Shown here in pieces: positions 1 through 61,108 of a stretch of DNA of 64,000 nt. Location of the stretch: NCBI GenBank assembly GCA_021613535.1, contig CP075494.1, positions 4,216,001-4,280,000 of the forward strand. The letters run 5' to 3'. The position numbers and the translations under genes were made by a program. The notes under the pieces were generated by a model, which saw only the letters and a program-made list of their open reading frames with translations, ran no database searches and was not told the DNA's origin. Source of the stretch: Adineta vaga. Its lineage: Eukaryota > Animalia > Rotifera. Each line of letters opens with the position of its first letter. Positions within the stretch are counted from its first letter, which is position 1.

Positions 1-1195
1 ACCAGTCATATGTTGCACCATTGATCACCATAAATGTTGATTACTGACTTCTATCTAATGTTCTATACTGTATATATTTTAAGTTGAAAAATAAAAGTTT
101 AAAAGTTGCCACTGGTTGAGGCGTCAACGCAAATGAGTCGTTGTTTAATTACCAGGCTGTTATCAAGACAGATAAATATGTTAGTCAGTGTCTAAACATA
201 ATTATTTATGAATATAGATGCTAATATAGAAGAGATGATTTTGTCCGGATCTAAGATCTCCATTTGATCGACTAAACAGAAAGAATGAGAATTACATTCG
301 TTCATATATCTATTCCTAAGGTGTCGGCAATGCGAATTTCGAGTGAATATTTTTTTAAATTTTTTTCGTTTCATCCGATAGAGTTTTAGGCGCTGCTCAC
401 GAATATTTACTTTTTAACCTATTAGCAAAATCTTCCTTCCGGTCGAAAAATACGAAATATTTCAGAACAGTCAGTTTTAAAGAAAAGTGTGTTTTTTCAC
501 GAAATATGTGATAATATCTACTTTGTTGTACGTTTTCGATTTTGAAACTGATTTTGCCTGATTCAGCAGCACAAGCCGAGTCTAAAAAGTTTCTAGCTGG
601 TCACCAGAATCATCGGCATTTCTAAAATGTTTGTAAACGTATAGATGATAAGAAAGTTAATTTAAGTCACCGTAGTTCGTATCTGACTCTAACCTAAGAA
701 CGTTTTATAGTAGACGAAAAAGGACAAGACTATTTTAAGATCTGTTGGATACATATTTATATGATATAGATATAGAAAAAAAAAATCTCCAAATAAAAAT
801 CTTACGATAAAATTGTGCAATATATGTGAAACGAAAAGAAATGGAGAAACAATTTTAAAGTACACTGCCATTTTACCTGCTGTTGTAGAAAAAATAGAAG
901 AAAATCTCTACCAATCGAACAGTGAGTATTGTGTTTGTTGTGATTACATCATATTAATTTCATCGTAATAAATAAATATGTAAATCAAATGAAAAGAAGT
1001 GAGTAGAGATTATAACATAAATTCAAAGATATACAAGTTGTCATCATCGTTCTCAATTGCATTCTAATAGATAATTTAGTAGTTTTTCTCCAGAAATAAT
1101 ATTACAAAAATCTTGATGTAACGACATAAACTTATATTAAGATGAAGAATATCCTTTAGATTTCATCGAATAACGTCAGTTTGACGAACGAGATT

Positions 1196-2570
1196 ATGGC
1201 TAGTTCGCGAAACAAATCTAATATGTCTTCAAAATGTATAAAATGGATGTGGAATTCCAATACAGATGCATTCTCAAAGTCAGATTCACCCAATTGGTGT
1301 TATTTTACAGATGCCGAAAATATGATTATAGAAGAAGCGTTTATAGCTCATAAAACTCATGCTATGCTGGACGACTATCATATCGACTTCAAGAATAATA
1401 TGCAGATTTCTAACAACGATGTTAATAAGCAACGACCAGTTAAACGAAAAGTATGTGATGAAAATGAAAGAATTCTACGAGAAGATAGATTCCTTCCGAA
1501 TCCTGTCGCTCCAGATCGTCCTTTTGGTGAACGATATGGTTTTATTTCACCTTTTATAAAAGAAGCAGCCTACTCTCTTAACATTCGCCGAGGTGAATTA
1601 CCTTCTAAAAATAAATCGATCATTCCAATAATTGTAGAAAAAGCAGCTCTTGGAATTATTGAAGAAGGTAAGAAAATGGGCAAACACAAGGAAGCTGAAA
1701 GCATAGCAAAGAAGTTGAAAGATACAAAGAATCTTGGAATGGATAAAGTCTGGCGATGTTGTGCATATCTGTATACTTTAGAGACTTTTCTGTATAAGAA
1801 AATAAATGAAATTATGCGATTGATTGGAGACAAGGAGCATGAACAAATTTGGAAAAGTAAAATAGATACGTTGGGCCCATATTGTCTACTTCTGTGGGAT
1901 AATCCATTTAATAAAAAAATGATTCAACCAAATACAATTTTGTATCGAGGAGCTAATGTACCTGATCATTTATTAGCATTATTTAAAGGTGATGATTCGA
2001 AAGTTGAAAAACCATGGCATAGCTTTCAAGCATTTACTTCTTGTTCCCGTAATCGAAAAGTTGCCGAAAGTTTCGGCAATGTTTTATTCATTATGAAAAC
2101 TCTTGTTGCTTTTACTGTTGATCTTAGTTCATTATCTGAATATCCTGATGAAGAAGAGGAGTTACTATTTCCTGGTGTGTCATTTACCATTGATCAAATA
2201 GATATTAATGATAAGGGAAAGCATTTAATTTATTTAACTCTTCATCAACGGCATAATAGTAAGTAAACATAAGTTTTCTTTCACTTATCCGAAGAAATAG
2301 CAAGTAATGAATTTGAGCTCATATTCACGGGAACTTCGATTAGACATATATAAAGTTTAAATAAAAATAATGAATAGATATAAAAGAACAAAGTTAATAT
2401 TTTGTTTTGTATATACTTTTCTAGAATTTGATATGGCTCAAATCGGTCAAGCATCGAACATGCTAAAGACAAAACCTTTTAATTCTCGTCTTCATCAAGG
2501 TACTAGTCTTCGTCTTGATCGTAACGATGATAACGCTGAACGTGATGGCTATGATGATGATTGGGATTGA
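1196..2570 (+). CDS. WWE domain + R-S-E type (ARTC/cholera-toxin-like) ADP-ribosyltransferase; 2 exons (1196-2258, 2425-2570)
   Basis: N-terminal WWE (WMWNSN...WCYFTDAENMIIEEAF...YHIDFKNNMQIS...QRPVKR). ART motifs LYRGA, FTSCS and EYPDEEEELLFPG. A phase-1 intron GTAAGT(2259)..CTAG(2424) joins in frame to ORF 2370-2570. Confidence 0.85.
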
Positions 2571-16174: not shown

Positions 16175-16855
16175 TTATGGACGATGAAGATTGTGTGCTT
16201 TGTAATTTGGAAAGATATGGCTACGAGTTCGATTACGTTTGTGTCTAAAGATGAAAAACAAAACAAAGTCAGAGACTAATCGAAAGTTCTATTTTTCAAA
16301 TACTGTTTCATACTTAAAGCGCATATGATCATAGGTTGGTTGTATTAAACTTAATTCTTCCAATGTAAAATCATATAAACCCATCCATTTCGAAAGATTG
16401 TCATTCTTAATTTGATTAACATAGGAATATTCATTGTGAAGATTTATTTCATTGGGTAGCTGTTCAAAGCCAGGTGATTTAAGAATGAGATAACCAACTG
16501 CACAATGAACGTTTCGATGATCAACGAAACGTGGACTTCTATTTTCATCAATATTGAAACTTGTATTGTGTTCAGGAAATTCACCTTGTTTCCAATAAGT
16601 ATTTAAATGATCTAATATCTTGAGTTTCATTGAATTATTATTATTCATTTCAGTTTGACGACGAATGAATGATTCAACATATTCCAAATGTGTTTGTATA
16701 CGTAAAATATCAGATGTTGTTTCTAAAGGAAAAGAGCCATGTTTTTCGATGAAACTAAGATCACCAATAACTTTATTAACAGAGAATAAATCAGCTGTTG
16801 AAATCGGTGACGTCGTTAAAGAAACTAATATGTAACCGACAAATATGAGTATCAT
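16175..16855 (-). CDS. Secreted uncharacterised protein, bacterial-like; short terminal exon after an intron near 16246-16313
   Basis: Signal peptide MILIFVGYILVSL and conserved-looking blocks RIQTHLEYVE, YWKQGEFP, PRFVD...HCAVGYLI and TLEELSLIQPTY. Confidence 0.65.
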
Positions 16856-17496
16856 GTTGCAATTCTTTGCGATAAATTTGTACTTTAGAAAATACCGAAC
16901 AGAACGAATATATAAAGAAAGAGAAGCATACAGTGACAAGACAAAAATAAATATTATATTGAAAAGAAAATTCCCGTATCATCAATCATATCCTTTTTAT
17001 ACGGAATAAATATCTTCTTTATGTAGATAATGATAATTCGATAATTAGTTTTTGCGCGGTTGCTAGCAAATATTGAGTCAAAATGATTCATATTAGCAAT
17101 GAAAAAAGGACTTTGTTATTGTAGGGAAGTGCATACAAAAATTAGATCGAAAATAGATTGCATCTCAACAGAAATATTGCCAATGATCTCGATAAAAGGA
17201 AAATGAGCGAAATAGTCTATCAATATCTTATTAAGATCCATCCACGTTCTCACACTCTCAAATACGAACAACGCAATCAGCCGTTGTGTTGTATTCGTCA
17301 TGAAAACCTTTACGAAAATTTTCAATACCTCCACTATTCTTGTTTGCTTGATTGTATTAAACAACAATACTGTATTTTTCGCTATTCTTTCCTCGTGTTT
17401 GCACACAGTCGTCGATCAGCATAGACGAATTCTTTTTATGCATACATATTTAAAAAGTAACTATTTTCATTTCATATTATTATAGCCAGTAACGTT

Positions 17497-20283
17497 ATGA
17501 AAGAAAAGAATTCTAAAACACGCATCGACGACACTCAGAAGACGAACATCATAAAGAAGGCTTACTCCAGTTCCAATCATCGACGGTTTATACAGAACTA
17601 TGTTTTAATCTGGTTACATGATAGTGTATCATCATCGTCTTCCAATCTTCAAAATGAGACGGAGCAACTACGCAGAATTGTAAATGACATCTATTTCTTT
17701 ACAGATTTGGATGAATGTGTGGCTTTCATAGGAGACATCCGATTAGAAAAGGTATATGTTATTACATCTAATTCAATGGGACAAAAGTTAATGCCCTTAA
17801 TTCATTGGATGATGCAACTCGGTGCTATCTATATTTTATGCGATAAGTATCTTCAAGATCAAAAATGGATAGAGACATGGTCAAAAATCGAAGGTATTTA
17901 TAATCAAATCGAATCCATATGCAAAGTACTTCAGGTAGCTGTTCAGCGATGTGATCGCGATTACGTGTCTTTTAGTTTCGTTTCGCCGAACAAAGCTGAT
18001 GATTCGAATTTGAATCTCGATCAGCTAGAATCTTCCTTTATGTATACTCAATTGTTTAAGCATACTATACTGAGTATGGAACATAACGAAAAAGAAGTTC
18101 AACAAATGGTTGACTATTTCCAAAAAATATATTCTACAGATCGGCCGCATTTACAAATGCTTGAAGAATTTCGTCAAACGTATTGTTCGAATAAAACGAT
18201 TTGGTGGTATACACGTACCGATTTCATTTATCCAACACTGAATCGTGCTCTTCGATCGCTAGAGGCAGATATGATTGTCAACATGGCTTTCTTTATTCAT
18301 GATTTACATCAACAACTTGCTCAATTACATGCCGCGCAGATTAGAGACTATGATGGTAAACCTTTTGTTGTTTACCGAGGGCAAGGTTTGACTGTTGCAG
18401 ATTTTGAGACATTGAAAAATAATCAAGGAGGATTAATGTCTTTCAATGAGAGTTATTATGGAGACGAAGATGAAGTACTTTTTACTATGCACGCTGTATT
18501 TCGGATAGATGACATTCGGTGTTTGAACGATATGAACTCACTTTTTGAAGTGCATATGAATCTTACAATGGATGATGATACACAATTACGCGCTATAACC
18601 GAACGATATATTGAACAACTCCAATATTCTAATGGATGGCATCGTGTGGGTAGAGTAATTCTTTTGGTAGGGAATGTAGAAAAGGCAGAGGAACTGTATA
18701 ATGCTCTACTTTCGCAGTCATCCGATGAAAAAGACGAAGCTTCATATAATTATCAATTGGGATATATTAAAAGTGTAAAAGGAAATTATGATGAGGCGTT
18801 TGACTTTTACGAAAAATCATTGCGATTTTGGGAAAAAACTTCTTCTGAAAATTGTCCTGACTTGACGATTTGTTACACTAGTATTGGTTCGGTGTACGAT
18901 GACATAGGTGAATACACAAAAGCACTGTTTTTCTACGAAAAAGCATTAGAAATATGTCAGACATACCTACCTGAAAACCATCCGCGTATGGCCACTTCTT
19001 ATAACAATATCGGTTCTGTGTATTATAACATGGGCAATCATTCGGAAGCACTTGCCTTTTACGAAAGAGCATTAAAGATCAAAGAGATAACTCTTCCCCC
19101 AAATCATCCCAGTTTAGTCGGTCTGTATAGCAGCATTGGTTGTATCTATCAAAATATGCGAAATTATGCAGAAGCTCTGTCTTTCTGTAAAAGAGCATTA
19201 GAGATTGGACAAATAGTTCTTCCTCCGAATCATCCTGATTTAGCCATTTCTCATAACAATCTTGGCTGCATATATCAAGAAATCGAGGAGAATCAAAAAG
19301 CGATATATTTTTTTCAAAAAGCATTAGATATCTGGCAAAAAACTCTGCCAGAAAGTCATTCATCATTAGCTACTTTCTACAACAATATGGGTACGGTGTA
19401 TACTACATTAGAAGAATATTCGGAAGCATTGTTTTTCTATGAAAAGGCATTGAACATTGATCAAATACGTCTACCGGAAAACCATCATAATATGGCTACT
19501 AACTATAATAACATTGGTAAAGTCTATGAAAGCATGAAAGATTATTCCAAAGCACTTTTATTCTATAATAAGGCACTAGACATTTGGCAAAAAGTTCATC
19601 CTGAAAATAATGTTGTTCTTGCGACTTCTTACAACAACATAGCCGGAATGTATCATAGTATGAAAGCATACTCAAAAGCAATGTCTCTCTATGAGAAGGC
19701 ACTAAAGATGCGACAGATATATTCACCTGAAAATCATACTGACTTGGCCGTTTCGTACAATAACATTGCTTTATTGTACAACGATATGGGTGAATATCCG
19801 AAGGCACTCTTCTTCAACTTAAAAGCGTTGGAAATGTGGCAAAAGACTTCTTTCGAAAATCATTCATCATTCGCAATTGTTTACCACAATACTGCTTCGG
19901 CATATACAAACATGGGAGAGCATTCGATTGCATTGCCTCTATACGAAAAAGCACTGGATATCTATCAGAAAACTCTTCCTGCAAATTCTCTATCTTTAGC
20001 TAATGTCAATAGAGATATCGGCATGGCATATTCAAATATGAAACAGCACATAAATGCGTTACCGTTCTATGAAAAAGCACTGGATATTCATAAAAATAAT
20101 CATCCTATGAATTATTCCGCTTTGGCAGATATCTACACTCGAATGGCTGCAGGATATCAAGCACTGGGAGAGGATTCCAAGACAATGCCCTTTATTATGA
20201 AATCATTCCACATGCTTTTTAAACATTATTTCTTTCAAACTATTCATATTAGTATGATATTTTTGAAAATCACACAGTTTTAG
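17497..20283 (+). CDS. ART-domain/TPR protein (about 12-13 42-aa TPRs) with an internally deleted ART domain
   Basis: IWWYT...LNRALR...VYRGQG...EDEVLF...FRI, followed by repeats of ATSYNNIGxVYxxMGxYSxALxFYEKALxI. An upstream exon is likely (acceptor at 17485). Confidence 0.85.
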   Translation: MKEKNSKTRIDDTQKTNIIKKAYSSSNHRRFIQNYVLIWLHDSVSSSSSNLQNETEQLRRIVNDIYFFTDLDECVAFIGDIRLEKVYVITSNSMGQKLMPLIHWMMQLGAIYILCDKYLQDQKWIETWSKIEGIYNQIESICKVLQVAVQRCDRDYVSFSFVSPNKADDSNLNLDQLESSFMYTQLFKHTILSMEHNEKEVQQMVDYFQKIYSTDRPHLQMLEEFRQTYCSNKTIWWYTRTDFIYPTLNRALRSLEADMIVNMAFFIHDLHQQLAQLHAAQIRDYDGKPFVVYRGQGLTVADFETLKNNQGGLMSFNESYYGDEDEVLFTMHAVFRIDDIRCLNDMNSLFEVHMNLTMDDDTQLRAITERYIEQLQYSNGWHRVGRVILLVGNVEKAEELYNALLSQSSDEKDEASYNYQLGYIKSVKGNYDEAFDFYEKSLRFWEKTSSENCPDLTICYTSIGSVYDDIGEYTKALFFYEKALEICQTYLPENHPRMATSYNNIGSVYYNMGNHSEALAFYERALKIKEITLPPNHPSLVGLYSSIGCIYQNMRNYAEALSFCKRALEIGQIVLPPNHPDLAISHNNLGCIYQEIEENQKAIYFFQKALDIWQKTLPESHSSLATFYNNMGTVYTTLEEYSEALFFYEKALNIDQIRLPENHHNMATNYNNIGKVYESMKDYSKALLFYNKALDIWQKVHPENNVVLATSYNNIAGMYHSMKAYSKAMSLYEKALKMRQIYSPENHTDLAVSYNNIALLYNDMGEYPKALFFNLKALEMWQKTSFENHSSFAIVYHNTASAYTNMGEHSIALPLYEKALDIYQKTLPANSLSLANVNRDIGMAYSNMKQHINALPFYEKALDIHKNNHPMNYSALADIYTRMAAGYQALGEDSKTMPFIMKSFHMLFKHYFFQTIHISMIFLKITQF

Positions 20284-32349: not shown

Positions 32350-33636
32350 TTAACTGATAAGAAAAATTATTATGTAGATTATAATCATCATTGTCGAGGT
32401 TACAACTGATGTTGCTGATGAGTTTGCTGATTTGGTATTAACATATGCAGCAATACCAGCAAGTTTTGGTATACTTGTAGTATCACCTAATTGTGCCATG
32501 ACCATTCCATTTGCCGTTGCATTACCAATTGCATTTAATTGATAACCCGTAATCACATGTGCTGTAGTGCCTATAACATACAGATAATCTTTACCTGTCA
32601 AACTTATTACTGTTGCTTCAAGTGCACCAGTGTTGTTAGGCAGTTGATAGTATTGAATAATCTGAACAGGATTTGAAGTTGCACTGACATTAACCTTTAA
32701 TTCAACAATAGATGCTGTTCCGGCACCAATCACATAGTAAGTACCGAGATTTGGTGAGTAAGTTGACCAACATAAGGCACTAGCAAGTGTTGTATTAACT
32801 GGTGTTAGCATGCTGTTATTTAACATTCCAGTCGTTGATGAATAAGTCATTGTTAAAACACCGTCAGCACCTGGATCAGTAATTAATAGACCATTCGTAC
32901 CTACAAGAGTCATCGAAAATGGTAGAACACCACCCATTGGTGTCATTTGTATTGGTATTGTTGATAACGTAGTCTTATCACTATTCAACGTATAAAATAA
33001 GAGATAACCTGGTGATGTTGTATTAGAACCTTTGACTGAGATAATTAAGGCAAGATTATCTGCAGAGAATAAAATTTCACTGAATGTCTGTCGAGGACCG
33101 CTTGGTAGAGCAGTTTGTGATATATATGATGTCAGATTTCGATCGAATGACGTCACAACAAATAGACCAGATGAATTATAAGTGAAACAGCGAATACCTG
33201 TCATACTACCACCAGTTAAGACACATGCATACATATTATTGACAGTTACTGATACAGGAAATGAGCCATATGAAGATTGAACTGATGCTAAAGTCAATTG
33301 TGTAGCATCGGATGGATTGATCATAAACATCGATAATGAATTAGATCCTGGATTAACAGCAAATAAATAATTCGAATAAACTGCAAGTGCTCCTTGTGAA
33401 AATAAGGGATCGCCCGCTGTGGTATTAACACCAGTTCCATTGCTATTGACTGAATTTATCATTGTTAATTGACCACTTGCATTTACACAATGAACTAATA
33501 CTTGATTCGTATTTGCTCCATTTGACATTGTATAGACAGCGCCAACACAACCTGATGCTGTTGGATACAATGTTTGACCATCGATATTCTCTACTATGAG
33601 TAAAACAACTATCACATTGAGTGATATTAATCGCAT
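32350..33636 (-). CDS. Secreted, probably GPI-anchored lactonase-family beta-propeller (3-carboxymuconate cyclase-like)
   Basis: GAVYTMSN, DPLFSQGAL, LFAVNPGSNSLSMF, FPVSV, ALCW; signal peptide and hydrophobic C-terminus; intronless. Confidence 0.8.
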   Translation of the reverse strand: MRLISLNVIVVLLIVENIDGQTLYPTASGCVGAVYTMSNGANTNQVLVHCVNASGQLTMINSVNSNGTGVNTTAGDPLFSQGALAVYSNYLFAVNPGSNSLSMFMINPSDATQLTLASVQSSYGSFPVSVTVNNMYACVLTGGSMTGIRCFTYNSSGLFVVTSFDRNLTSYISQTALPSGPRQTFSEILFSADNLALIISVKGSNTTSPGYLLFYTLNSDKTTLSTIPIQMTPMGGVLPFSMTLVGTNGLLITDPGADGVLTMTYSSTTGMLNNSMLTPVNTTLASALCWSTYSPNLGTYYVIGAGTASIVELKVNVSATSNPVQIIQYYQLPNNTGALEATVISLTGKDYLYVIGTTAHVITGYQLNAIGNATANGMVMAQLGDTTSIPKLAGIAAYVNTKSANSSATSVVTSTMMIIIYIIIFLIS

Positions 33637-34523
33637 TTTGAAATTTAAGTAAGGATTCACCCAATCGAATATATATATATATATATTCAATAATGAGATA
33701 AACAAAAAGAGAAAAACACGACGATGATGATGATGATGATGATGACGAAGTCTTTTTTCGTCACAGTCTTCCTAGTTATAATTATATATATGAATACTCA
33801 TCAAAAGAGAAACTATTGAAAAACGTACCTGTAACTTTTTTTTCTTTTCAATAAGTATTCAGTGCTCGTCGTATCTATAAGAATGACGATGCAGAAAAAA
33901 CCGAAGAGAGAAAATATCCTTGAATGATGCATTTATATGTGTAAACGCCCATATTTTTATGAATATTGTGAGAAAAGAAAAGAATACAAGTTATAGAAAA
34001 AATTTGTTTTTAAGCCTGATCATATATGATAATGATCGTCTATGTAATGAAGTCACACTAACTACAATAGTATCTCTCAGCATATATTTTAAATAAATAT
34101 TCGATTATTCAAAACACATATTTACTCATTTTTGTTATCATCTATACAACGGATTATTTCTCTTTTCTTCTATAAGATAAATATTTTATCATAAAATTAT
34201 TCAACATTGTTTCCAGTTTTGTGAAGACTTGTGCAATTTTATGATTGGATGGGAACCGGCTTATATTCTTTTATAAATGCCCTGTGCACTTTCATCACTT
34301 ATTCATTCAATTGATTTGTTTATCTACAATTGCGATATTCATCAATCTTGGAAAGAAAAATTGTAAAAGTTATTTCATCACCTTGTGTAAATTATACGTC
34401 ATTAATAATTGTTTTTCGTTCTATTCTTTGTATGTATGTTGTCACATGGATGACATCATCGATATGTTACCTATTTCTTTATAAAAACAGGTAACTATAT
34501 TCGAAATAAACAGAACTACCAAG

Positions 34524-35478
34524 ATGGCTGCACTAAGTTTTAATAAAATGACCAAACGTAATGAATTGAATTATACAGATGCTTCATCCATAAATCGTTT
34601 ATCACGAGATAGATATGCAACTATTGCCGAAGATACTCTGAATAGATTTCAAACTGATTCAAATCGATCATATGGCAATCAACGTAGTAATTTACAAGAT
34701 AATGTCCGTTATTCGATTGATAATACGATTGTGTATAGAGAGAATGATTTAGAAAGACCAAATCAAATTCAATCGTCTGCATCGTCACCGATCTATGAAG
34801 TTCGTCATTGTACAACTTTACAAGCGGCTCAATCATTAGTAAACGAAGTTGATGATGAAAATCGTATTGGAATATTGAATTTTGCATCAGCAAAAAATCC
34901 TGGTGGTGGTTTTCTCAAAGGTTCAAATGCTCAAGAAGAATCAATAGCAAGAACATCGTCACTCTATTTAACACTTTCTCAAAATCGAATATTTCCTCAA
35001 TTTTATGGTTTTCATCGACAAGAAAAAAATGGACTTTATTCTCATCGAATCATCTATTCACCACGAATTACAGTTATCAAAGTAACGAGGAAATTAGCTC
35101 ACCATTCTTTAATATATTCGTTTTTCTACATAGGATGATAATGGTAAGTTATTATCTTCACCGTATCATATCGGGATAGTTACATGTGCCGCTCCAAATG
35201 CAAGTATTTGCTCTGCCGATGTTGAATTAGTTCGACAGACAATGAGAGAACGAATTGAACATTTATTAACTGTATTTAAAATACATCATCATGATATTAT
35301 TGTCTTAGGAGCATTTGGTTGTGGTGTATTTAGAAATGATCCATTGGAAGTTGCTACGACTTTTCGAGAACATTTACAATCGGAAAAATTTCGAAATTGT
35401 TTTAGTCGAATTATTTTTGCAATTTTTGATGTAGAGATGTGTCGAATATTCGAACGAGTATTCAATAGTAATGAATAA
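34524..35478 (+). CDS. TIGR02452/DUF2263 microbial-type poly(ADP-ribose) glycohydrolase (macrodomain); intron 35082-35133
   Basis: LNFASAKNPGGGFLKGSNAQEESIAR (GGG-x6-QEE catalytic loop), IYSP, VTCAAPN, LGAFGCGVFRND. Confidence 0.9.
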
Positions 35479-37996: not shown

Positions 37997-39835
37997 ATGA
38001 CAAGTTTACCATATTCAAGTGTTGTTCAACCATTACTAACAGATCTTTATCAAATTTCCATGGCGTATGCTTATTGGAAAAATAATAAACATCAAGAACA
38101 ATCAGCATTTGATCTTTATTTTCGTAAAAATCGTAAGTAAAACTTCATTGATTTATTAAGAAGAAACGAGTTATTTTTTTCTTCTTCATAGCATTTGATG
38201 GTGAATTTACATTATTTGCTGGTTTAGAAGAATGCTTAAAATTTGTACGTGATTATAAATTTCATTCGAGTGATATCGATTATCTTCGAACTGTTTTACC
38301 AGGATATGTTGAAAATGAATTTTATGATTATTTAATAAAACTTGATATGAAAGATATTAAAATATATGCATTTCCTGAAGGTAAAATAAATCTTTTCGAA
38401 TATATGATTACATTTGTTTTCATAGGATCTGTCGTCTTTCCTCGTATACCATTACTTCGTATTGAAGGACCTATATTAAAAGCACAATTACTTGAAACAA
38501 CTTTATTAACATTAGTTAATTTTGCAAGTTTAGTTGCAACAAATGCAGCTCGATTTCGTGCAACAACAGGATCCGATAAAAGTTTCCATGAATTTGGTCT
38601 TCGACGTGCACAAGGTCCTGATGGTGGTTTAAGTGCTTCAAAATATTGTTATCTTGGTGGATTTGTGGGACATCGAATGTACTTGCAGGAAAACTTTTTG
38701 GAATTCCGGTTAAAGGTAAACAATCATATTCGAACGCAATGATTTATCTTTTTCTTCTCTATGAATTTGTTTTTAGGTACGCATGCACATGCGTATGTTA
38801 GCTCATATAACAATATGGATGATTTAAAAGTTCATGAACTTCATGATCAAACTACGAATGAACTTCGACCTTTTGCAGCATTATGTGTCAAATATTTAAA
38901 AGAACTTGCTCCAATCTTAGGATTTATTCCAGAAGAAGCTAATCAAGGCGAATTAGCGGCATTTATATCATATGCAATTGCTTTTCCAACAGGTTTCTTA
39001 GGTTTAGTTGACACTTATGATGTTTTAAAATCAGGTGTACCCAATTTTCTTGCTGTTGTCCTTGCTTTACATGAATGTAATTATCAAGCAATTGGCCTTC
39101 GATTAGATTCAGGTGATTTAGCTTATTTATCGTTGGAAGTTCGAGCAAGATTTACAAATGTTTCGGAAAAATTTAATATACCTTATATAAAAACGTTAAA
39201 TATTGTTGCAAGTAATGATATCAATGAAAATATATTACTTTCATTAGAAAAACAACAACATGCGATTGATACATTTGGTATTGGTACACATTTAGTTACT
39301 TGTCAAAAACAACCAGCATTAGGTTGTGTTTATAAATTAGTTGAAGTAATTTCTCATTAGAAATCGAATTAAATATATATTTCTTATTAACTTTCTAGTT
39401 AGAGGGATCACCACGTATAAAATTGAGTCAAGATATTGCCAAAGTAACAATACCTGGTCGAAAAAATCTCTATCGATTGTATGGTCAAGATGGCAAAGCA
39501 TTATGTGATTTAATGACAAAAATTGATGAATCTCCACCTACAGCTAAATCTCGCATACTTTGTCGACATCCATTTTTAGAGAAGAAACGTGCATATATCA
39601 CACCATCATCAGTACAATCTATGTATAATTTATATTGGTCTGATGGAGAAATCAAACATTCATTACCAACATGGGAAGAAGCACGAACATTTGCACAAGA
39701 ACAAATTCAATCATTACGAAAAGATCATATTCGTAATTTAAATCCAACACCATATAAAGTTTCAGTGACTGATGAACTTTATTCATTTATGCATCAACTT
39801 TGGATTGAGATGTACCAATCGGTGAACTCTCTTAA
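37997..39835 (+). pseudogene. NAPRT: Nicotinate phosphoribosyltransferase with two 1-nt deletions (pseudogene or sequence error); 5 exons
   Basis: [74 protein letters not shown]. Frameshifts at about 38665 and 39810. Confidence 0.85.
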
Positions 39836-40254
39836 TATTTCATTATTTAAACAAAAACTAAACTAAATAAATGTAGAGCTATATACACACATATGTAAGA
39901 TGAAACATTCAATATGATTATTTTTAGGAAGAAATACTCTATTCTCCATCTTACGACGGAAGATTTCTCGCACTAATAAAAAAGATTCTTATCTGATATC
40001 ATTATTTCATCTAATACTTCTTTTTAATCCTTTTCAAAAATATTATTCGCTGTTCTATTCTAAACAGTAAATCAGTCGATCAGGGTGTGGATATATCTTA
40101 TTCACCCACATCCACCTTCAAGATTTATACAGTTGAATAAAGACAATAATGTCTATTACAATGGAATATTATACTGAACTGAATGAAATAGTAAATAAAT
40201 TCTATTTCATTCTGCCTTTCATTCGAATTTAGATGTGATTTACAGAAAACTCAT

Positions 40255-54419: not shown

Positions 54420-55412
54420 TTAATTTTGATGAAGAACATTCGTTTTTAAGAAATAATCGACGGATGGAATCGAATATCCTGTTGGACCATTTTGACCTTG
54501 ATAAAGAATTTTTTTATCGTATAAAACATAAAGTTTTTCTGGCCATCCACGAAATATATGATTCGTATGATCATTCATTGTATCAGAATAAATTGATATT
54601 TGATCACTTTGATTAATTCCAGTTAATTCTACAAGAGTTTCAATTGCATCAATTCGATCTTGTATATCTCGATGATTTGCAATAAAACTATAATTTGGTC
54701 CATCAAATTTCCATCCATCTGAAGCATGTGCTTCACGAATATAGATTATTATAAAATCAATAGGCGAATTGTTCTTTTGATGATATTGTGCAAGTTCAAT
54801 AAAAGATTTTAAACTTGCAAGAAATGGAGGTCATGTACAACTACCGAAATTAACAACAAGATAACGTCCATTTTTCATTAATGAACGTAAACTAATAATT
54901 TCAATATTTTCATTATTATTTTTAGTCAATAAATTAATATTTTCAGTTAGAACAGGAATTAATTTTGCTGTTTCTGGTACTGGTTGACCAGGTGAAGTGA
55001 GACTTGCTGGAAGTGTTCGAGATAGTCGAATACGTTCACGTTCTAAATTCCAATAAAAGATCCAAAATTGTAATCGTAATGCAGAACGAACAGCTAAAGA
55101 TGGTGGACATGTCTGTGCCTAAAATAACATAGAAATCTATTCATGTTGTAGGCTTTACAAAGAGCAAAAAATATATAGACATACGGTAACAGCAGCACCC
55201 TGAATAAATTCATTTGGCATTCGATGTTCATCATTATTTCTATCTTGTTCAGCAAGGTTTTTTGCATTTTTAATCCATTCTTTTTCTTGAAACGTTATCA
55301 CAATCCAAAGACAATGTAAAATCATCATTACAGGATTGAGTATCATTCGTTTCATTGTTAAAAAAATTTCAATTATCTCATTTTTTAATCGAACAAACCT
55401 TTCGTCCCACAT
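54420..55412 (-). CDS. Iodothyronine deiodinase-like selenoprotein (Sec UGA at 54831-54833); exons 55412-55185 and 55118-54420, 308 aa
   Basis: Manual translation gives RYLVVNFGSCT-U-PPFLA...IIYIREAHASDGW...NHRDIQDRIDA...DTMND...GWPERLYVL...YQGQNGPTGY, with a hydrophobic N-terminal segment and a downstream SECIS. Confidence 0.92.
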
Positions 55413-56029
55413 ATTTTTCAATTGATAATAATTTTATATAAAATTTACGCATTTATATAAGTATCAACTGATAAAAGAACAATATTTATTTTATATCAAT
55501 GCACTTTTTTTTCTTCTTCATTACATCTAGCAATCATTATTGCCTCGTGCGCAGGTATATACAACCTTATCGAAATAGTCAAATGTATGATTTATAAACC
55601 TCATGTCGATGATGCACATTAGATCACTTATCAGTAGTATTTTTTTTTCTTTTCGTCCTTCTTACGTTAAAGAAGCTGCTACGTCATGATGAAACATATA
55701 TTATTCTTAGCTGTTTACCACACAATTCTAAAAATATAAAGCGAAGAAAATAGATGCGAATATGATACAAATCAGTCAACAATTCTATCGATAATTGATC
55801 AAACTTAACTCTATGACAAGACAATGACTATACCATAAATAAATTTTGCACTTATACATACAGATGACTCATACGACAGAACGAGTGGGAAACAAATGAT
55901 GCAATGTTTACTCTTTTCGCAATGTGTCATGAGCTAGTTTGTTTTTATAAAAACAGCAATGGATATCTGAAAAACAAACCATAAAAAATTTGTTTTTAGT
56001 TTCGATTATACCCGTAAGAAAAAGTAGTC

Positions 56030-57252
56030 ATGGATAATTTGATGCCCGAGCTGTATGAAAATTTAATGTCATTATGTTCAAGAAATATTGGATTTTATTT
56101 CAAAGATAGTGAACTTGATTCCATAAAATATCGTGTATTTAATTATCGTCTTTGTTCCTATGAACAATTTCATAATTTTCCATCAGCTTTAAATTGTCGT
56201 GGAATACTATTCAATATTACAGATCCAGAAAATATTCAACTTGTTAGTTTACCACCAGAAAAATTCTTTAATTATGAAGAAGGAAATGGTTTAAAAATTC
56301 ATCCACTAGGAAAATTCGGTGTGCAAATGGAAAAACTTGATGGATCATTGATATCAACTTATTTACATAAAGGAGAAGTTCGTTTAAAATCAAAAACAGC
56401 ATTAGGATCATCACAAGCAACTGAAGCTATGACGTTATTAACAGGTAAAGATACATTCTTTTTAACTTCGCATTTCATTGAATAGAATCATTTCTTCTAG
56501 GAAAATATCTTGACGAAGTAAAACAAATTGTTTGTGATAATAAAACAGTTAATTTTGAATTGACATCACCTACAAATCGAATTATTTTATATTATAATGA
56601 ATCAAAACTACGAATTCTTTCAATTCGTTGTCATTTAACTGGTGATACATTATTTGGTGATCGACTTATTCAATATCTCAAAGAAAAACAATTTTCAACT
56701 ATGATTGAAAATGTTGTGTCTTTCAAACAAGTATCTGGTGGTGTATCACATGAAAGATTTGTTGACGATATTAGAAATGAAACAGAAGGAGAAGGATATG
56801 TAGTGGAAATTATTAGTTCAGATAAGAAATGTTATTTGATTAAAATTAAAAATCATAAATATTTATTACTTCATCATACAAAATCTAGCTGTACATCAGC
56901 TAAATATTTGTGTCAATGTGTAATTAATGAACAAACCGATGATATAAGAGCCTTGTTTATTGATGAAAATGCAACTTTACAACGAATAACAGATATGGAA
57001 AACAAAGTGAGACCAGTATATAATCAATTAGTTCATACTGTCGAATCATTCTATGAAGAAAATAAAGGTCTATCAAGAAAAGATTATGCAATCAAAATTA
57101 GTAATATAAAAGATTTGAAAATTTATATGCCATTACTTATGAATTTATATGGAGGAAAAGAAGTTGATTTTAAAAAATTTGCTGTCGATCGTATGAAAGA
57201 TATTTTCGATATTACTGAAGATACGAACATAGATATCGATGAAAATCTATAA
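56030..57252 (+). CDS. T4 RNA ligase 1 (Rnl1)-like RNA ligase; intron 56445-56500, 388 aa
   Basis: ALNCRGILF, PPEKFFNYEE, motif I EKLDGSL, NFELTSPTNRI, EGYVV, IKIKN, and C-terminal HHTKSS...TDDIRALF...RKDYA...MNLY. Confidence 0.88.
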
Positions 57253-57358: not shown

Positions 57359-58402
57359 TCATTGTATTATTAAGCCAATTTTTTCAAATTCTTGAGATAT
57401 TTCCGAAAATCCGACGAATCGATGTTGTTCTTCATCCCACAGCGTTTTACCAAGAGAGTCGATGATTTTATGAAATGAATCGAAGACAAAAATATTATCC
57501 CACGAATACGGTGGTGCTTTTTTATGGACATGCTCAAGATTATAACAAGGAATTCTAGTTGTGAGATGATGAATATGATGATACTCAATTCCCAAAGTGA
57601 ACCATTTCAAAATTGGTGGTATAATAATATGAGATGATCCTCTTAAAGAAGCGTCAAATTTTGAATATTTATTAGCAATATGATTGATGTATGTTGGATT
57701 GTACGTATGTTGAAAATGAAATAATATAAATCCACCACTACTAGCTAATATCATTGTCATAACAAACAGCATTATGAGACGAATACCCCCAAAATAATAG
57801 AAAAAGTAGCAATGAAGAGGTACACTAACATTTGTTATGAAGGCGCCTTTCTTGAATCGATTCATAATGAAGAAATGAATGAACGGAATGATGGTGAAGA
57901 ATATGATGGGATCTCGACCGAACCGGTACAAGTAACGCTTCCAACTAGGCAACAATACGTATTGCCGTACGGTTAAAGGAATAGTGTCGTTGAAATTATA
58001 CTTAGTTGATGTTTGATCTCCTGAATTTTCATGATGTAAGATATGATTTGTACGCCAATAAGTATACGGAGTAAAGACTAAACATGATAGCAGTTTACCA
58101 AAATATATACACCATGTTTTATTTTCCCAAAATGATAAGTGCGTGCAATCGTGGAAGATCATAAACCAACGTATAAATACCAGAGCATATGTTACTACGA
58201 ATAAACACGGCGAATTCAAACCAAAGTAGGTCCACAAGGCAAATACATGAAAACAAATTGTAACAACAACGGTCGAAAATGCCTTCAGATCGTTCGCTAA
58301 GAATTCCCTATTTTTAAGATAGTCTCGAATTAAATGTTCATCATTCACTGTGTTTTTTAATGTGGTAACTTGATCCGCATGTGAAGTTTTCGCTTGAACC
58401 AT
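57359..58402 (-). CDS. Membrane fatty-acid desaturase, bacterial Des-like
   Basis: Three His boxes HDCTH, HILHH and HHIHH, plus RIPCYNL and TM segments. Confidence 0.88.
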   Translation of the reverse strand: MVQAKTSHADQVTTLKNTVNDEHLIRDYLKNREFLANDLKAFSTVVVTICFHVFALWTYFGLNSPCLFVVTYALVFIRWFMIFHDCTHLSFWENKTWCIYFGKLLSCLVFTPYTYWRTNHILHHENSGDQTSTKYNFNDTIPLTVRQYVLLPSWKRYLYRFGRDPIIFFTIIPFIHFFIMNRFKKGAFITNVSVPLHCYFFYYFGGIRLIMLFVMTMILASSGGFILFHFQHTYNPTYINHIANKYSKFDASLRGSSHIIIPPILKWFTLGIEYHHIHHLTTRIPCYNLEHVHKKAPPYSWDNIFVFDSFHKIIDSLGKTLWDEEQHRFVGFSEISQEFEKIGLIIQ

Positions 58403-59884
58403 TACTGTATATAGATTACGGCCTTCCCTAAACAAACAAAACCTTTTTATCCGAATAAATAATACTTTTGATGAATTACTATAAGAAAAAGTCTGAATCC
58501 TGCTACTCTAGATTTGACCTAACATTTGAAAAGAAAGTCAACTTTTCATTACTGACATTAGTTGAAATAGAGATACAATGGCAACAATCAATCAGCTGTT
58601 GCCCATAAGCAGGAAGGTTTTTCTTTCTTTGACTATGTAAGAGGATGCAATTAAAGCAGATACTTCAATTTTTCTTGTTCTTTTTCTTCATTTTTATCGT
58701 CAATTATTCTTGGTCTTATCTCTTTTCATTTTCCATCTCTTTTATTTTTCTTTCGCATCCATCCTCTCTCGTTAATTATTTCTTTTTATGGAATTTACTG
58801 TTGAATATTCAACTTTCTCAGAGAGAAAAAAACGAAATTTCTCTATCTATTAACATTATTATTCCAGGAAACTCATTTTTCAACGATTTTTTTTCTTACA
58901 TCATGTATCATATTAATTCTTTTGAAGAATACATGAAAAAAAATCTATTCAATTTGTTAATATAGTTATGATTATTCAAAGTATATTTTACGTATTTGGT
59001 TTGTTTAGTAGGAGTGAAGATGAAATAGAAAAAGAAAATTATTTTTTTCGTCATTTCATATTTTTAAATGAAAGTCACTGATACAAAGATGAATGTTATT
59101 GGATATTTCTGAAGTTCCATTACCACGATTGGCTCATTTAATTATATTAGCTACAATTAATATATTTCGAAATCGATTAGGGTGTGGGTGAGAAAGAAGA
59201 AGATACATCTATATCATACCCATTCATTGTCATTTTCATAATTTCTTCTTGTTTTTTTTCTGTTTAGAATTCAATAAATATAGATAAATTAAAAGAATCA
59301 AATAAATTATCCCTATAAATGGTCAATACACTTCAAAAACTTTTATTTTCCAGAATAAATTCTCTTTCCAGAAGTAATAATAGAAAATAATATTATTTAA
59401 AATTAAATAACCAATACAAGATGATAATAAAGGATAAAAAGTATTGATAATCATTTTTCTGTGAGATAGAATATCTTGTAATTCCAAGAATTAGTTCAAC
59501 CATACTAAAAATATTCTTATTCTTCTAGTGTACAGAATGTGTGTAAGGACGGTGGATGTAAATTTTAATTTAGTCTAATCCTAATCCTACAATTGCATCC
59601 TGGCAAAATAATAGAATAATGTATGATTAAACTTAATGAGTTTAATATAAGAAAACTAAATGACCAAATATGTGGAAAATATAATGCTTTGTTTTTCTCA
59701 AATATCTAGATTTATGATATGCTATATGATATGCGATACCTAACGCCATCTTTTATTTTAAAACTGCGTCGAGATCTTTCCCTGCAGCTCTATCATTTGT
59801 CGAGAGATCATAAATGTGATAAGATCACTAAAGAAAACATGCTTTTTCAATAAAAAAATTACATTTTGTTTTTGTTATCTGATT

Positions 59885-61108
59885 ATGGCGAGTGGAACTA
59901 CAATGGATCAACGACGTAAAGCCACGTGTAAGGATCAAATTATCGAGACACAAATGTTAAATGATCTGTATAAAGCTTGCTATGAGAACGATGTTGAATT
60001 TGTTCGACTATTACTGGAAACAACTCCGTTCGAAACGATAAATTGCACAGAATTCAATGTTAGTACTGCTTTAGAAATTGCAACAAATTGTGATCATGTG
60101 GAAATCATTCATCTTCTACATGAATATAATGCATTAAGACATTTAACTGAGAATCAAGATCGCACTGATTTTGAAACAACACAAGCAGAAGAAATAGAAC
60201 AATTATTTCGACAACCGGTTTCGAATGAAAATCGATTTTGTACAAAGACGAGAATTTCTACCATGTTTTCTCCCTTACAAAAAGATACGAATTCGCAGAT
60301 CCCTTATGGGTACATAGAAGGTATGGAAAATTTTACTACTATCCGAAAATATTATGCCGAGGAAGTATATCCTCATTGTGATAGTTTGATACATCGTATC
60401 TCTGATAAGATTCCATGGAGCCCATTCAGTAACGCAACAAGGTTAAAACATTCAAAAATATTGTTTGAATTTATTGAAGAACATATTAACTCAAAAGACT
60501 TATACATTAAAGCAAAAATGTTAGTGAAACGATTCTCTGAAAATGGATCAATAGAAGAACTTCTTCGTTTGTATACGCTAGAAACACCATTTTATCGATG
60601 CATTAATCAAAATAAAGAATCGAGTGAAATACTTGCGTCTCCCATCTATCACCACCTTCGATTTCTTCGTAAACGTGTTTTCAAAGGTACTTGTTATCGT
60701 GGTCTTAGTATGACAAATGAAGACATCGGTGTGTATCAATGGGCTGAACAACATACTAATCGTTATATAGTAACAAATACTTTTTGTTCAAGTACAACAG
60801 ATGAAAATGTAGCAAACGGATTCGCTAAAGCAAATACATATGATAAACATAAACCAGTGTTAATGATTTTCACATTTCATCAATCAGCTTTTACTGCTAT
60901 ACAACTTGGTGAAATTTCAGACAAATTACCTTGTATTTCTGAGAATAAAGATGAACAAGAAATTCTGATTTTACCCAGAACAGTTTTCACTGTAACAAAA
61001 GTCGAACCAGATTCATTTTTGACAAAAATATATTTGGAATATTTCGATCTACATGGAGAAGTAGATATGTTTCTTACTTACTGGGCTGATGCAGCTTTTA
61101 ACTATTGA
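59885..61108 (+). CDS. Ankyrin repeat + R-S-E ADP-ribosyltransferase
   Basis: LYKACYENDVEFVRLLL and STALEIATNCDHVEIIHLL ankyrin repeats; LYTLETPFY, CYRGL, TFCSST, DEQEILILP. Confidence 0.82.
   Translation: MASGTTMDQRRKATCKDQIIETQMLNDLYKACYENDVEFVRLLLETTPFETINCTEFNVSTALEIATNCDHVEIIHLLHEYNALRHLTENQDRTDFETTQAEEIEQLFRQPVSNENRFCTKTRISTMFSPLQKDTNSQIPYGYIEGMENFTTIRKYYAEEVYPHCDSLIHRISDKIPWSPFSNATRLKHSKILFEFIEEHINSKDLYIKAKMLVKRFSENGSIEELLRLYTLETPFYRCINQNKESSEILASPIYHHLRFLRKRVFKGTCYRGLSMTNEDIGVYQWAEQHTNRYIVTNTFCSSTTDENVANGFAKANTYDKHKPVLMIFTFHQSAFTAIQLGEISDKLPCISENKDEQEILILPRTVFTVTKVEPDSFLTKIYLEYFDLHGEVDMFLTYWADAAFNY

What the first reader, a model, noticed from the sequence alone, without database searches (positions are those of the whole stretch)
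56030..57252. Full-length phage T4 Rnl1-type RNA ligase domesticated with a spliceosomal intron
Seen: 388 aa with nucleotidyltransferase motifs (KLDG, NFE, EGYVV, KIK) and a 56-nt GT-AG intron. Known (T4 Rnl1 recalled from memory): it is collinear from the N-terminus (ELYENLMSLC vs ELFNNLMELC; ALNCRGILF vs ALECRGIMF; EKFFN; PTNRI) through the C-terminal helical tRNA-specificity domain (HHTKSS vs HSTKSS; RKDYA vs RKTYA; MNLY vs MSLY). In phage, Rnl1 with Pnk repairs tRNA cut by the PrrC anticodon nuclease. Inference: a virus- or phage-derived RNA repair enzyme used against ribotoxins or desiccation/radiation RNA breaks. The intron argues against contamination. No Pnk partner is visible in this window.
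Basis: partly seen in the sequence, partly recalled or inferred. Interest (0 to 1): 0.8.

Follow-up and report, generated by a model that had tools for sequence, protein, structure and literature searches.

The report
Rotifer's borrowed phage-type RNA ligase
This is an intact, spliced gene of the bdelloid rotifer Adineta vaga for a phage T4 Rnl1-type RNA ligase, likely taken from a prokaryotic virus or plasmid long ago and predicted to reseal cut tRNA during fungal infection; the gene family, its foreign origin and its induction by a fungus are already published.

Summary
Observation confirmed. Exons 56030-56444 and 56501-57252 with a 56-nt GT-AG intron give a 388-aa protein identical to A. 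vaga I4U23_023105 (UJR19973.1). The intron is skipped in contigs of 6 of 8 runs laid. The protein passes the TIGR02308 cut-off, keeps T4 Rnl1's active-site residues and C-domain, and its model matches T4 Rnl1 (Z 35.5, 360 residues), not fungal Trl1 (Z 20, N-domain only). It is not new: Nowell et al. 2024 list bdelloid HGT genes whose top hit is T4 Rnl1, all six A. vaga models induced by a fungal pathogen at 24 h, not enriched under desiccation, and propose the anti-ribotoxin role. The A. ricciae ligase g43506 sits beside an induced deiodinase (g43507), as this gene does. Added here: homologues in three bdelloid genera share a bdelloid-only deletion, and five metagenomic copies share the intron site, favouring one ancient gain; descent from T4-like phages is rejected (AU p=1e-6), the nearest relatives being uncultured jumbo-phage and low-GC large replicons; the kept C-domain points to tRNA rather than the sarcin-ricin loop. 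Activity, substrate and end-healing partner are untested.

The parts
56030..56444 (+). Exon 1 of the Rnl1-type ligase (codons 1-138 plus one base): Rnl1 N-subdomain (R57, K78, F80), motif I KLDG (K102, predicted adenylated lysine), K120/K122
   Evidence: PF09511 E 2e-8; T4 Rnl1 E 3e-20
56445..56500 (+). 56-nt GT-AG spliceosomal intron, phase 1 at Gly139; same site and phase in five metagenomic bdelloid-type copies
   Evidence: skipped in contigs of 6 of 8 runs
56501..57252 (+). Exon 2: motifs III (E158), IV (E236 G237), V (K253, K255) and the all-helical T4 Rnl1 C-terminal domain (PF20819, about residues 266-371, with R331/K332), acidic tail, stop
   Evidence: (PF20819 E 1e-16)
54420..55355 (-). 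Neighbour, head-to-head: iodothyronine deiodinase-like gene (in-frame TGA in GSCT*PPF, likely selenocysteine; 66-nt intron 55118-55183). Used as synteny marker to the induced A. ricciae pair g43506/g43507
   Evidence: (PF00837 E 8e-27)

Best explanation
This is an intact, spliced A. vaga gene for a T4 Rnl1-family RNA ligase, likely gained once by an early bdelloid from an uncultured prokaryotic mobile replicon and predicted to reseal nuclease-cut RNA, most likely tRNA anticodon loops, as part of an infection-induced defence. Shown: gene structure, splicing, family membership, kept active site and C-domain, spread across Adineta, Rotaria and Didymodactylos. Published for the family: induction by the fungus Rotiferophthora at 7-24 h. 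Inferred from T4 Rnl1: K102 is adenylated by ATP, AMP is passed to a 5'-phosphate, and a 3'-OH attacks to seal; the C-domain steers it to tRNA anticodon breaks. Inferred, not shown: because toxin RNases leave 2',3'-cyclic phosphate and 5'-OH ends, healing is supplied in trans, by the co-induced 2H-phosphoesterase/EEP protein on the 3' side and a 5'-OH kinase (native Clp1-type or the induced PNK/ligase-like HGT gene) on the 5' side.
For: Family: TIGR02308 above cut-off; only T4 Rnl1 hit in PDB by sequence at E<=10; model pLDDT 90, Z 35.5, rmsd 3.6 A, 360 aligned to 2c5u versus Z 20.4, 252 aligned (residues 3-263) to Trl1 6n67. T4 R54, K75, F77, K99, D101, G102, K117, K119, E159, E227, G228, K240, K242, Y246, H250 are identical in all 16 aligned relatives, R318/K319 map to R331/K332 and stay basic in 16 of 16; R54 and K75 essential and the C-domain responsible for tRNA anticodon-loop specificity per PMC6379707 (passages). 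Domestication: splicing; dN/dS 0.30-0.42 against 4 metagenomic copies, 8 synonymous and 6 missense variants among 14 in the CDS, no stop; GC3 0.12. One gain: K120-E158 spacing 38 in 15 of 21 bdelloid-labelled rows, Didymodactylos included, and 0 of 312 measurable non-rotifer rows; 17 of 18 bdelloid rows one clade 99/93; full monophyly not rejected (AU 0.61, 0.30). Induction: 6 of 6 A. vaga 'virus tail fiber assembly' genes up at T24, 5 of 6 at T7; 4 A. ricciae genes with top hit T4 Rnl1 up (PMC11258130 supplements); ARIC g43506 (ligase) is next in number to g43507 (deiodinase, up at T24), matching this window. The two most induced A. vaga HGT genes encode PF13563+PF03372 (bioRxiv passage); 2H enzymes clear cyclic ends for ATP-dependent ligases (PMC7824862 passage). 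Nearest relatives also sit beside repair-type genes: Rnl2 (L001, L003), cREC (L035), kinase-phosphatase-ligase fusion (L062), weak 2H (L071).
Against: No enzyme assay exists or could be run. I could not map this gene to an AVAG model id directly; the link rests on all six T4-like models being induced and on A. ricciae gene numbering. No ribotoxin or cut RNA has been shown in infected rotifers (the authors call it a hypothesis). No healing partner was identified here: no genome was held, and the fusion-protein search listed no rotifer-named protein among the best 120 of 2697. Didymodactylos falls outside the bdelloid clade in both careful trees and is closest by identity to a prokaryotic row (53% to L036), and it lacks two small insertions the others share, so two gains are not excluded. 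The sister group is unresolved (L062/L071, 94/62 and 83/89) and bootstraps had not settled. dN/dS of 0.3-0.4 is moderate. Animals already have RtcB, which joins cyclic-phosphate/5'-OH ends without healing (PMC11494293 passage).
Confidence: 0.55

Rival explanations
1. Active Rnl1-type ligase induced by infection, but its target is the sarcin-ricin loop of 28S rRNA cut by a fungal ribotoxin (the published hypothesis), or broken RNA in general, not tRNA.
For: Hypocrealean relatives of the pathogen secrete SRL-cutting ribotoxins; Nowell et al. propose this. T4 Rnl1 joins many single-stranded RNAs in vitro and the C-domain is not needed for catalysis (PMC13717052 passage). Rnl2-type and 2H enzymes are co-induced.
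Against: The tRNA-specificity domain is kept whole, with the basic pair R331/K332. No SRL repair by Rnl1 appeared in the one search aimed at it (listing only).
Confidence: 0.22
2. A general RNA-damage enzyme for radiation, oxidative or desiccation breaks; fungal induction is a side effect of cell damage.
For: [quoted passage not shown]
Against: RNA-ligase and RNA-repair terms were not enriched under desiccation, nor at FDR<0.05 in the radiation study. The two radiation genes are compared by their authors to Deinococcus DraRnl, a different family; their table could not be read.
Confidence: 0.13
3. The gene is kept for a non-ligase role (tRNA binding or shielding, RNA adenylylation or circularisation, small-RNA processing).
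For: No dedicated Pnk beside it; T4 Rnl1 has side activities and a second, non-catalytic job in tail-fibre attachment (T4 annotation).
Against: Every checked catalytic position is invariant across bdelloid copies.
Confidence: 0.07
4. Contamination, a pseudogene, or a vertically inherited Trl1-type eukaryotic ligase.
For: Trl1 shares the adenylyltransferase fold and Pfam PF09511.
Against: Spliced contigs in 3 studies, intron-bearing animal-type neighbours, 16.9-Mb contig, homologues in three genera, intact ORF, T4-type C-domain that Trl1 lacks, no Trl1 sequence hit at E<=10.
Confidence: 0.02

Closest known systems
Bdelloid HGT RNA ligases with PF09511 / top hit T4 Rnl1 (Nowell et al. 2024, PMC11258130; bioRxiv 10.1101/2021.09.04.458992): AVAG g8740/g40265, g11232/g12150, g27012/g30102; ARIC g9962, g15788, g30137, g43506
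   Same: Same species, same family, introns noted, HGT call, fungal induction, ribotoxin hypothesis; ARIC g43506 lies next to a deiodinase as this gene does.
   Different: That work used Pfam seed trees and GO terms; in the passages and supplements I saw it does not discuss the C-domain, catalytic residues, intron position, number of gains, the donor clade or the need for end healing.
Phage T4 RNA ligase 1 (gp63, RnlA; PDB 2c5u, 5tt6, 9do4) in the Pnk/Rnl1 repair of PrrC-cut tRNA-Lys
   Same: Collinear, 32% identity, same two domains, all checked active-site residues kept.
   Different: Intron-bearing animal gene; 4 residues shorter between K120 and E158; no Pnk nearby; not derived from the T4-like branch (AU p 1.2e-6); activity untested.
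Uncultured Rnl1 clade on jumbo-phage contigs (L001-L006) and large low-GC contigs with bacterial-type genes (L031-L041; L062 with DotM/IcmP)
   Same: 43-51% identity; the bdelloid genes nest in this clade (100/99).
   Different: Intronless, gene-dense context (PARP-WGR, TerD, PilT, photolyase, cREC, Rnl2); the exact sister lineage and the nature of the low-GC replicons are unresolved.
Fungal tRNA ligase Trl1-LIG (Rnl6 family)
   Same: Adenylyltransferase domain superposes (Z 20, 16% identity).
   Different: Different C-domain, needs a 2'-phosphate, fused kinase and CPDase; none of these here.
Human RLIG1 (C12orf29) with ANGEL2 and Clp1
   Same: 5'-P/3'-OH RNA ligase in an animal, proposed to mirror T4 Pnk/Rnl1 tRNA repair (PMC11494293 passages).
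   Different: RLIG1 lacks the T4 RNA-binding C-domain; a separate family.
A. vaga DNA ligase E (PMC10665377)
   Same: Horizontally acquired ligase domesticated in bdelloids.
   Different: DNA substrate, radiation-induced, studied at protein level; that paper's main text has no mention of RNA ligase.

Membership tests
T4 Rnl1 (RnlA) RNA ligase family | Curated whole-protein model TIGR02308 above cut-off | tested here: met
   251.9 bits vs 242.25; 6 other bdelloid copies score 198-238, just under
T4 Rnl1 (RnlA) RNA ligase family | Nucleotidyltransferase motifs I, III, IV, V with the adenylated lysine | tested here: met
   K102/D104/G105, E158, E236/G237, K253/K255 align to T4 K99/D101/G102, E159, E227/G228, K240/K242
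T4 Rnl1 (RnlA) RNA ligase family | Rnl1-type N-subdomain with R54, K75 contacting ATP | tested here: met
   R57, K78, F80; role from PMC6379707 passage
T4 Rnl1 (RnlA) RNA ligase family | All-helical Rnl1 C-terminal domain | tested here: met
   PF20819 61.7 bits, cut-off 27; model aligned over 4-379 to 2c5u, Z 35.5
T4 Rnl1 (RnlA) RNA ligase family | ATP-dependent joining of 5'-P and 3'-OH RNA, with tRNA anticodon preference | not testable with these tools
   needs purified enzyme
T4 Pnk/Rnl1 two-enzyme tRNA repair system | Linked T4-type Pnk (kinase + HAD phosphatase) near the ligase | tested here: not met
   no hit in the 64-kb window at E<=0.1, while the same query finds Pnk beside the ligase in L025, L093, L099, L105, L106
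T4 Pnk/Rnl1 two-enzyme tRNA repair system | An end-healing partner elsewhere in the genome | tested here: inconclusive
   no genome held; one search lists only the best 120 of 2697, none rotifer-named; published candidates ARIC g36236 (PNK/ligase-like hit) and PF13563+PF03372 genes not examined by sequence
Descendant of T4-like (Straboviridae-type) phage rnlA | One clade with T4, KP15 and the Flagellimonas prophage-like copy | tested here: not met
   AU p = 1.2e-6, lnL 105 lower
Fungal Trl1 (Rnl6) | Trl1 C-domain plus fused kinase and CPDase | tested here: not met
   388-aa protein carries PF20819 instead; Trl1 structures align only to model residues 1-264 (one to 293)
Fungus-induced bdelloid HGT RNA ligases (Nowell et al. 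2024) | A. vaga gene with T4 Rnl1 as best characterised match, intron-bearing, shared with other genera | tested here: met
Fungus-induced bdelloid HGT RNA ligases (Nowell et al. 2024) | This very locus is one of the six induced AVAG models | tested here: inconclusive
   no sequences or coordinates found in the supplements searched; indirect: 6 of 6 induced and ARIC g43506/g43507 adjacency; I put it at about 0.9

The most novel reading that the evidence does not exclude
Bdelloid rotifers run a complete, borrowed heal-and-seal tRNA repair pathway as an immune response: an Rnl1 taken once by their common ancestor from a giant low-GC bacterial replicon (jumbo phage or type IVB-secretion plasmid), triplicated, given an intron, and switched on with a horizontally acquired 2H/EEP end-healer and a kinase to undo anticodon cuts made by a fungal toxin or by the animal's own shut-off nuclease. 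It would be the phage counter-defence trick re-used by an animal as host defence.
Probability: 0.25. Interest if true: 0.7.

Novelty: already known. Interest (0 to 1): 0.27.

Why it matters
As a finding it is largely in print: bdelloids carry T4 Rnl1-like HGT ligases that rise on fungal infection. What would still matter is the untested mechanism. If the enzyme repairs toxin-cut tRNA in vivo, an animal would be using RNA repair as immunity with a phage-type enzyme, and the locus gives a ready, single-polypeptide assay. The anatomy worked out here sharpens the published guess into two predictions: tRNA rather than rRNA as substrate, and dependence on a co-induced end-healing enzyme.

Tried and rejected
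No whole genome was held, so copy number and Pnk-type genes in A. vaga could not be counted. Run search listed no holder on record as RNA: 'no RNA holder listed'; the RNA label of X1-X5 is the tool's guess and X11's kind is unknown, so only the spliced joint is used, not depth. X16 does not cover the gene; not used. Search with the L062 kinase-phosphatase-ligase fusion for a co-transferred rotifer partner: best 120 of 2697 hits, none named as rotifer; inconclusive. GTDB pattern scan gave 1 locus, a prophage-like region with nrdAB and Pnk; pattern-limited, so weak. Mapping to AVAG ids by neighbour numbers in two supplement files found nothing for A. vaga. Moris et al. tables were too large to read, so the family of the two radiation-induced ligases is unknown; Nowell supplement MOESM5 (too large) and MOESM3 (scanned) were also unseen and may hold per-gene values. 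Burroughs & Aravind 2016 and Wang et al. 2007 are not held; the R318/K319 role and the essential status of motif residues other than R54, K75, K99 are recalled. A literature search for Rnl1 + horizontal gene transfer + eukaryot + phage + RNA repair returned 0 papers. Earlier scan findings: none by sequence, place or words. Baculovirus, giant-virus and Trl1 sequences were not in the trees (not fetched); Trl1 was excluded by structure and domain content instead. Trees: 366 rows by FastTree, then 74 and 48 hand-picked rows by IQ-TREE LG+G4 without mixture model; for the 48-row tree 21 non-rotifer and 5 near-redundant bdelloid rows were dropped and the partial Didymodactylos row replaced by the full one. 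L030's acceptor is uncertain (spacing 34). Rejected: contamination, pseudogene, Trl1 orthology, T4-like donor, desiccation as main trigger.

Full report
What is there. The window is AT-rich (GC about 0.30) animal DNA with short introns. An ATG at 56030 opens a frame that breaks at a GT donor at 56445 and resumes after an AG at 56500; the 56-nt phase-1 intron removed, the CDS gives 388 aa. That protein is letter for letter P0003, named 'hypothetical protein I4U23_023105 [Adineta vaga]', UJR19973.1, on a 16.9-Mb contig. The host is thus a bdelloid rotifer. Contigs of six of eight runs laid skip exactly these 56 nt with GT..AG ends (X1, X2, X5; X3, X4, X11; three coded studies); X10 reads through the intron and X16 does not cover the gene. 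The runs' RNA label is the tool's guess, and contigs cannot give level or strand, so only the joint is used.

Family. Exon 1 hits PF09511 and exon 2 hits PF20819, the T4 Rnl1 C-terminal domain; both hit phrog_562. The whole protein scores 251.9 bits on the equivalog TIGR02308, above the 242.25 cut-off. Against the PDB by sequence, only T4 Rnl1 appears at E<=10 (E 1e-42, residues 5-359; profile search E 1e-80). The AlphaFold model (pLDDT 90.2) aligns to T4 Rnl1 at Z 35.5, rmsd 3.6 A over 360 residues, and to fungal Trl1 at Z 20 over the adenylyltransferase domain only. RNA ligase families are defined by the domain appended to the core, and Trl1's C-domain is its own (PMC6379707, passages), so this is Rnl1, not Trl1. 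In an alignment of T4 with 16 relatives, T4 R54, K75, F77, K99, D101, G102, K117, K119, E159, E227, G228, K240, K242, Y246 and H250 are invariant; R318/K319 map to R331/K332 and stay basic; overall identity to T4 is 32%. R54 and K75 are essential per the passage read; K99 is the lysine replaced in PDB 5tt6; the roles of the other residues and of R318/K319 are recalled, as the primary papers are not held.

Domestication and age. Named homologues come from A. ricciae, A. steineri, four Rotaria taxa and Didymodactylos carnosus. Five full metagenomic loci of low coding density carry an intron of 49-355 nt at the same codon and phase (L030's acceptor is uncertain), and two partial ones show the same donor. 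L027-L029 are an intronless copy among intron-bearing animal-type genes; it nests among intron-bearing copies, which suggests intron loss. dN/dS against four metagenomic copies is 0.30-0.42 (Nei-Gojobori); 14 coding variants in the laid contigs are 8 synonymous, 6 missense, no stop. The K120-E158 distance is 38 residues in 15 of 21 bdelloid-labelled rows, including Didymodactylos (3 not measurable, L030 34, two gene calls that likely read through the intron 53 and 58) and in 0 of 312 measurable non-rotifer rows (31 not measurable; rows include duplicates). In IQ-TREE, 17 of 18 bdelloid-labelled rows form a clade (99/93; 12 of 13 at 92/67); Didymodactylos falls outside in both, but monophyly of all is not rejected (AU 0.61 and 0.30). 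Against a single gain, Didymodactylos lacks two small insertions the others share and is closest by identity to a prokaryotic row. The bdelloid label on unnamed rows is my assignment from introns, context or tree position. One gain before the bdelloid radiation, followed by duplication into at least three paralogue groups, is the simplest reading; two gains remain possible.

Donor. Cultured phages reach 38% at best. Closer relatives, 43-51%, lie on uncultured viral contigs (L001-L006) and on large low-GC metagenome contigs of up to 785 kb with bacterial-type genes such as PARP-WGR, TerD, PilT, ThrRS, photolyase and sigma factors; related proteins occur on 2.2-Mb contigs. The bdelloid genes nest in this clade (100/99) and a clade with T4, KP15 and a Flagellimonas prophage-like copy is rejected (AU p 1.2e-6). 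The weakly supported sister, L062/L071, includes a locus with DotM/IcmP and a kinase-phosphatase-ligase fusion. A pattern scan of GTDB species genomes gave one locus. So 'phage-type' is right, 'T4-derived' is not, and the donor may have been a jumbo phage or a giant plasmid-like element. Bootstraps had not settled and no mixture model was used.

Partner. T4 Pnk finds nothing in the window, while it finds Pnk beside the ligase in five loci of the T4-like and CBB-like branches (annotated also). Near the closer relatives stand other repair-type genes: Rnl2 directly downstream in L001 and L003, cREC in L035 and L041, the fusion in L062, a weak 2H match in L071. Without a genome I could not search A. 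vaga; a search with the fusion listed no rotifer-named protein in the best 120 of 2697.

What is already known. Nowell et al. 2024 (PMC11258130; passages; supplements searched) and its preprint (passages) report horizontally acquired RNA ligases, PF09511 among them, as a leading part of the response of A. vaga and A. ricciae to the fungus Rotiferophthora, note introns against contamination, and propose repair of ribotoxin cuts. Their tables give four induced A. ricciae genes whose top hit is 'Rnl1 [Escherichia virus T4]', and six A. vaga models under the T4-derived term 'virus tail fiber assembly', 6 of 6 up at 24 h and 5 of 6 at 7 h; orthogroup rows pair them as three loci of two copies, each found in other genera (the pairing is my reading of the matching rows). 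These terms were not enriched under desiccation. I found no sequence or coordinate to tie this locus to an AVAG id, but ARIC g43506 (ligase) is followed by g43507, an induced deiodinase, and here the ligase lies head-to-head with a deiodinase gene. I put the chance that this is one of the six at about 0.9. Moris et al. 2024 (PMC10809525, passages) report two HGT RNA ligases up after irradiation; their family could not be checked.

How it most likely works. By homology K102 takes AMP from ATP, passes it to an RNA 5'-phosphate, and a 3'-OH seals the break (PMC13717052, PMC11494293 passages). T4's C-domain gives specificity for tRNA anticodon-loop breaks, and it is kept here, so tRNA is the likelier substrate than the sarcin-ricin loop that the published hypothesis names. 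Toxin RNases leave ends that this class cannot join, so healing is needed (PMC7824862 passage). The two most induced foreign genes in A. vaga encode a 2H domain plus an endo/exonuclease-phosphatase domain, and an induced A. ricciae gene has a baculovirus PNK/ligase as top hit; animals also have Clp1- and ANGEL2-type activities. That these heal for this ligase is inference only. Confidence: active Rnl1-type ligase about 0.9; infection-induced tRNA repair 0.55; rRNA or general RNA repair in infection 0.22; abiotic damage 0.13; non-ligase role 0.07; artefact 0.02.

Verdict. The additions here (verified splicing, shared intron site and deletion, donor clade, tRNA and healing predictions) are incremental. 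Novelty: already known. Interest 0.27; 0.7 if the full borrowed repair pathway is shown.

Noticed in passing
window 54420-55355 (-) and 55356-56029: Iodothyronine deiodinase-like gene with an in-frame TGA (GSCT*PPF, likely selenocysteine) lies head-to-head with the ligase, about 670 bp between start codons; in A. ricciae the adjacent pair g43506/g43507 are both listed as up at 24 h, and deiodinase activity is enriched there. A shared infection-responsive promoter is possible.
   Followed up: partly
window 57359-58507 (-): Single-ORF 382-aa fatty acid desaturase (PF00487), tail-to-tail with the ligase; lack of introns may mean another foreign gene. One spliced ligase contig (X1) runs on into it.
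   Followed up: no
window 55985-56029: A T-rich tract ending in AG (ttgtttttag) about 30 nt before the ATG could be a 5'-UTR or spliced-leader acceptor; contigs start at 55990-56020 and cannot decide.
   Followed up: no
L027-L029 (e.g. L028:6001-7146): Intronless bdelloid-type copy beside a mitochondrial-type aspartyl-tRNA synthetase gene and F-box-like genes; nested among intron-bearing copies, so likely intron loss.
   Followed up: partly
L001:5986-8192, L003:5998-8111: Rnl1 and Rnl2 (PF09414) in tandem on two uncultured viral contigs close to the bdelloid gene; bdelloids also carry induced Rnl2-type HGT genes, so a common donor type is worth testing.
   Followed up: no
L031-L041, L062: Large low-GC contigs (up to 785 kb; related proteins on 2.2-Mb contigs) with Rnl1, WGR-PARP, TerD, PilT, cREC, and in L062 DotM/IcmP; many proteins end in short basic tails. 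They look like a family of giant uncultured replicons hardly seen in GTDB species genomes.
   Followed up: partly
window 59762-61108 (+), 1160-2266 (+), 17461-20283 (+): Ankyrin-ART, WWE-like-ART and ART-TPR proteins of the expanded bdelloid ADP-ribosyltransferase-like families (first by weak Pfam hit, others by eye).
   Followed up: no
window 38152-39866 (+) and 34485-35478 (+): Nicotinate phosphoribosyltransferase-like gene and a TIGR02452-like macro/PARG-type gene (recognised by eye, not searched).
   Followed up: no
window 16289-16978 (-) and 32350-33771 (-): Bacterial-looking ORFs (an 'HCAVGYL' motif protein; a lactonase-like beta-propeller), possible further HGT genes; by eye only.
   Followed up: no
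window 56272: Three runs (X3, X4, X11) show the same loose end joining here; may be a paralogue or unrelated transcript sharing a short word.
   Followed up: no
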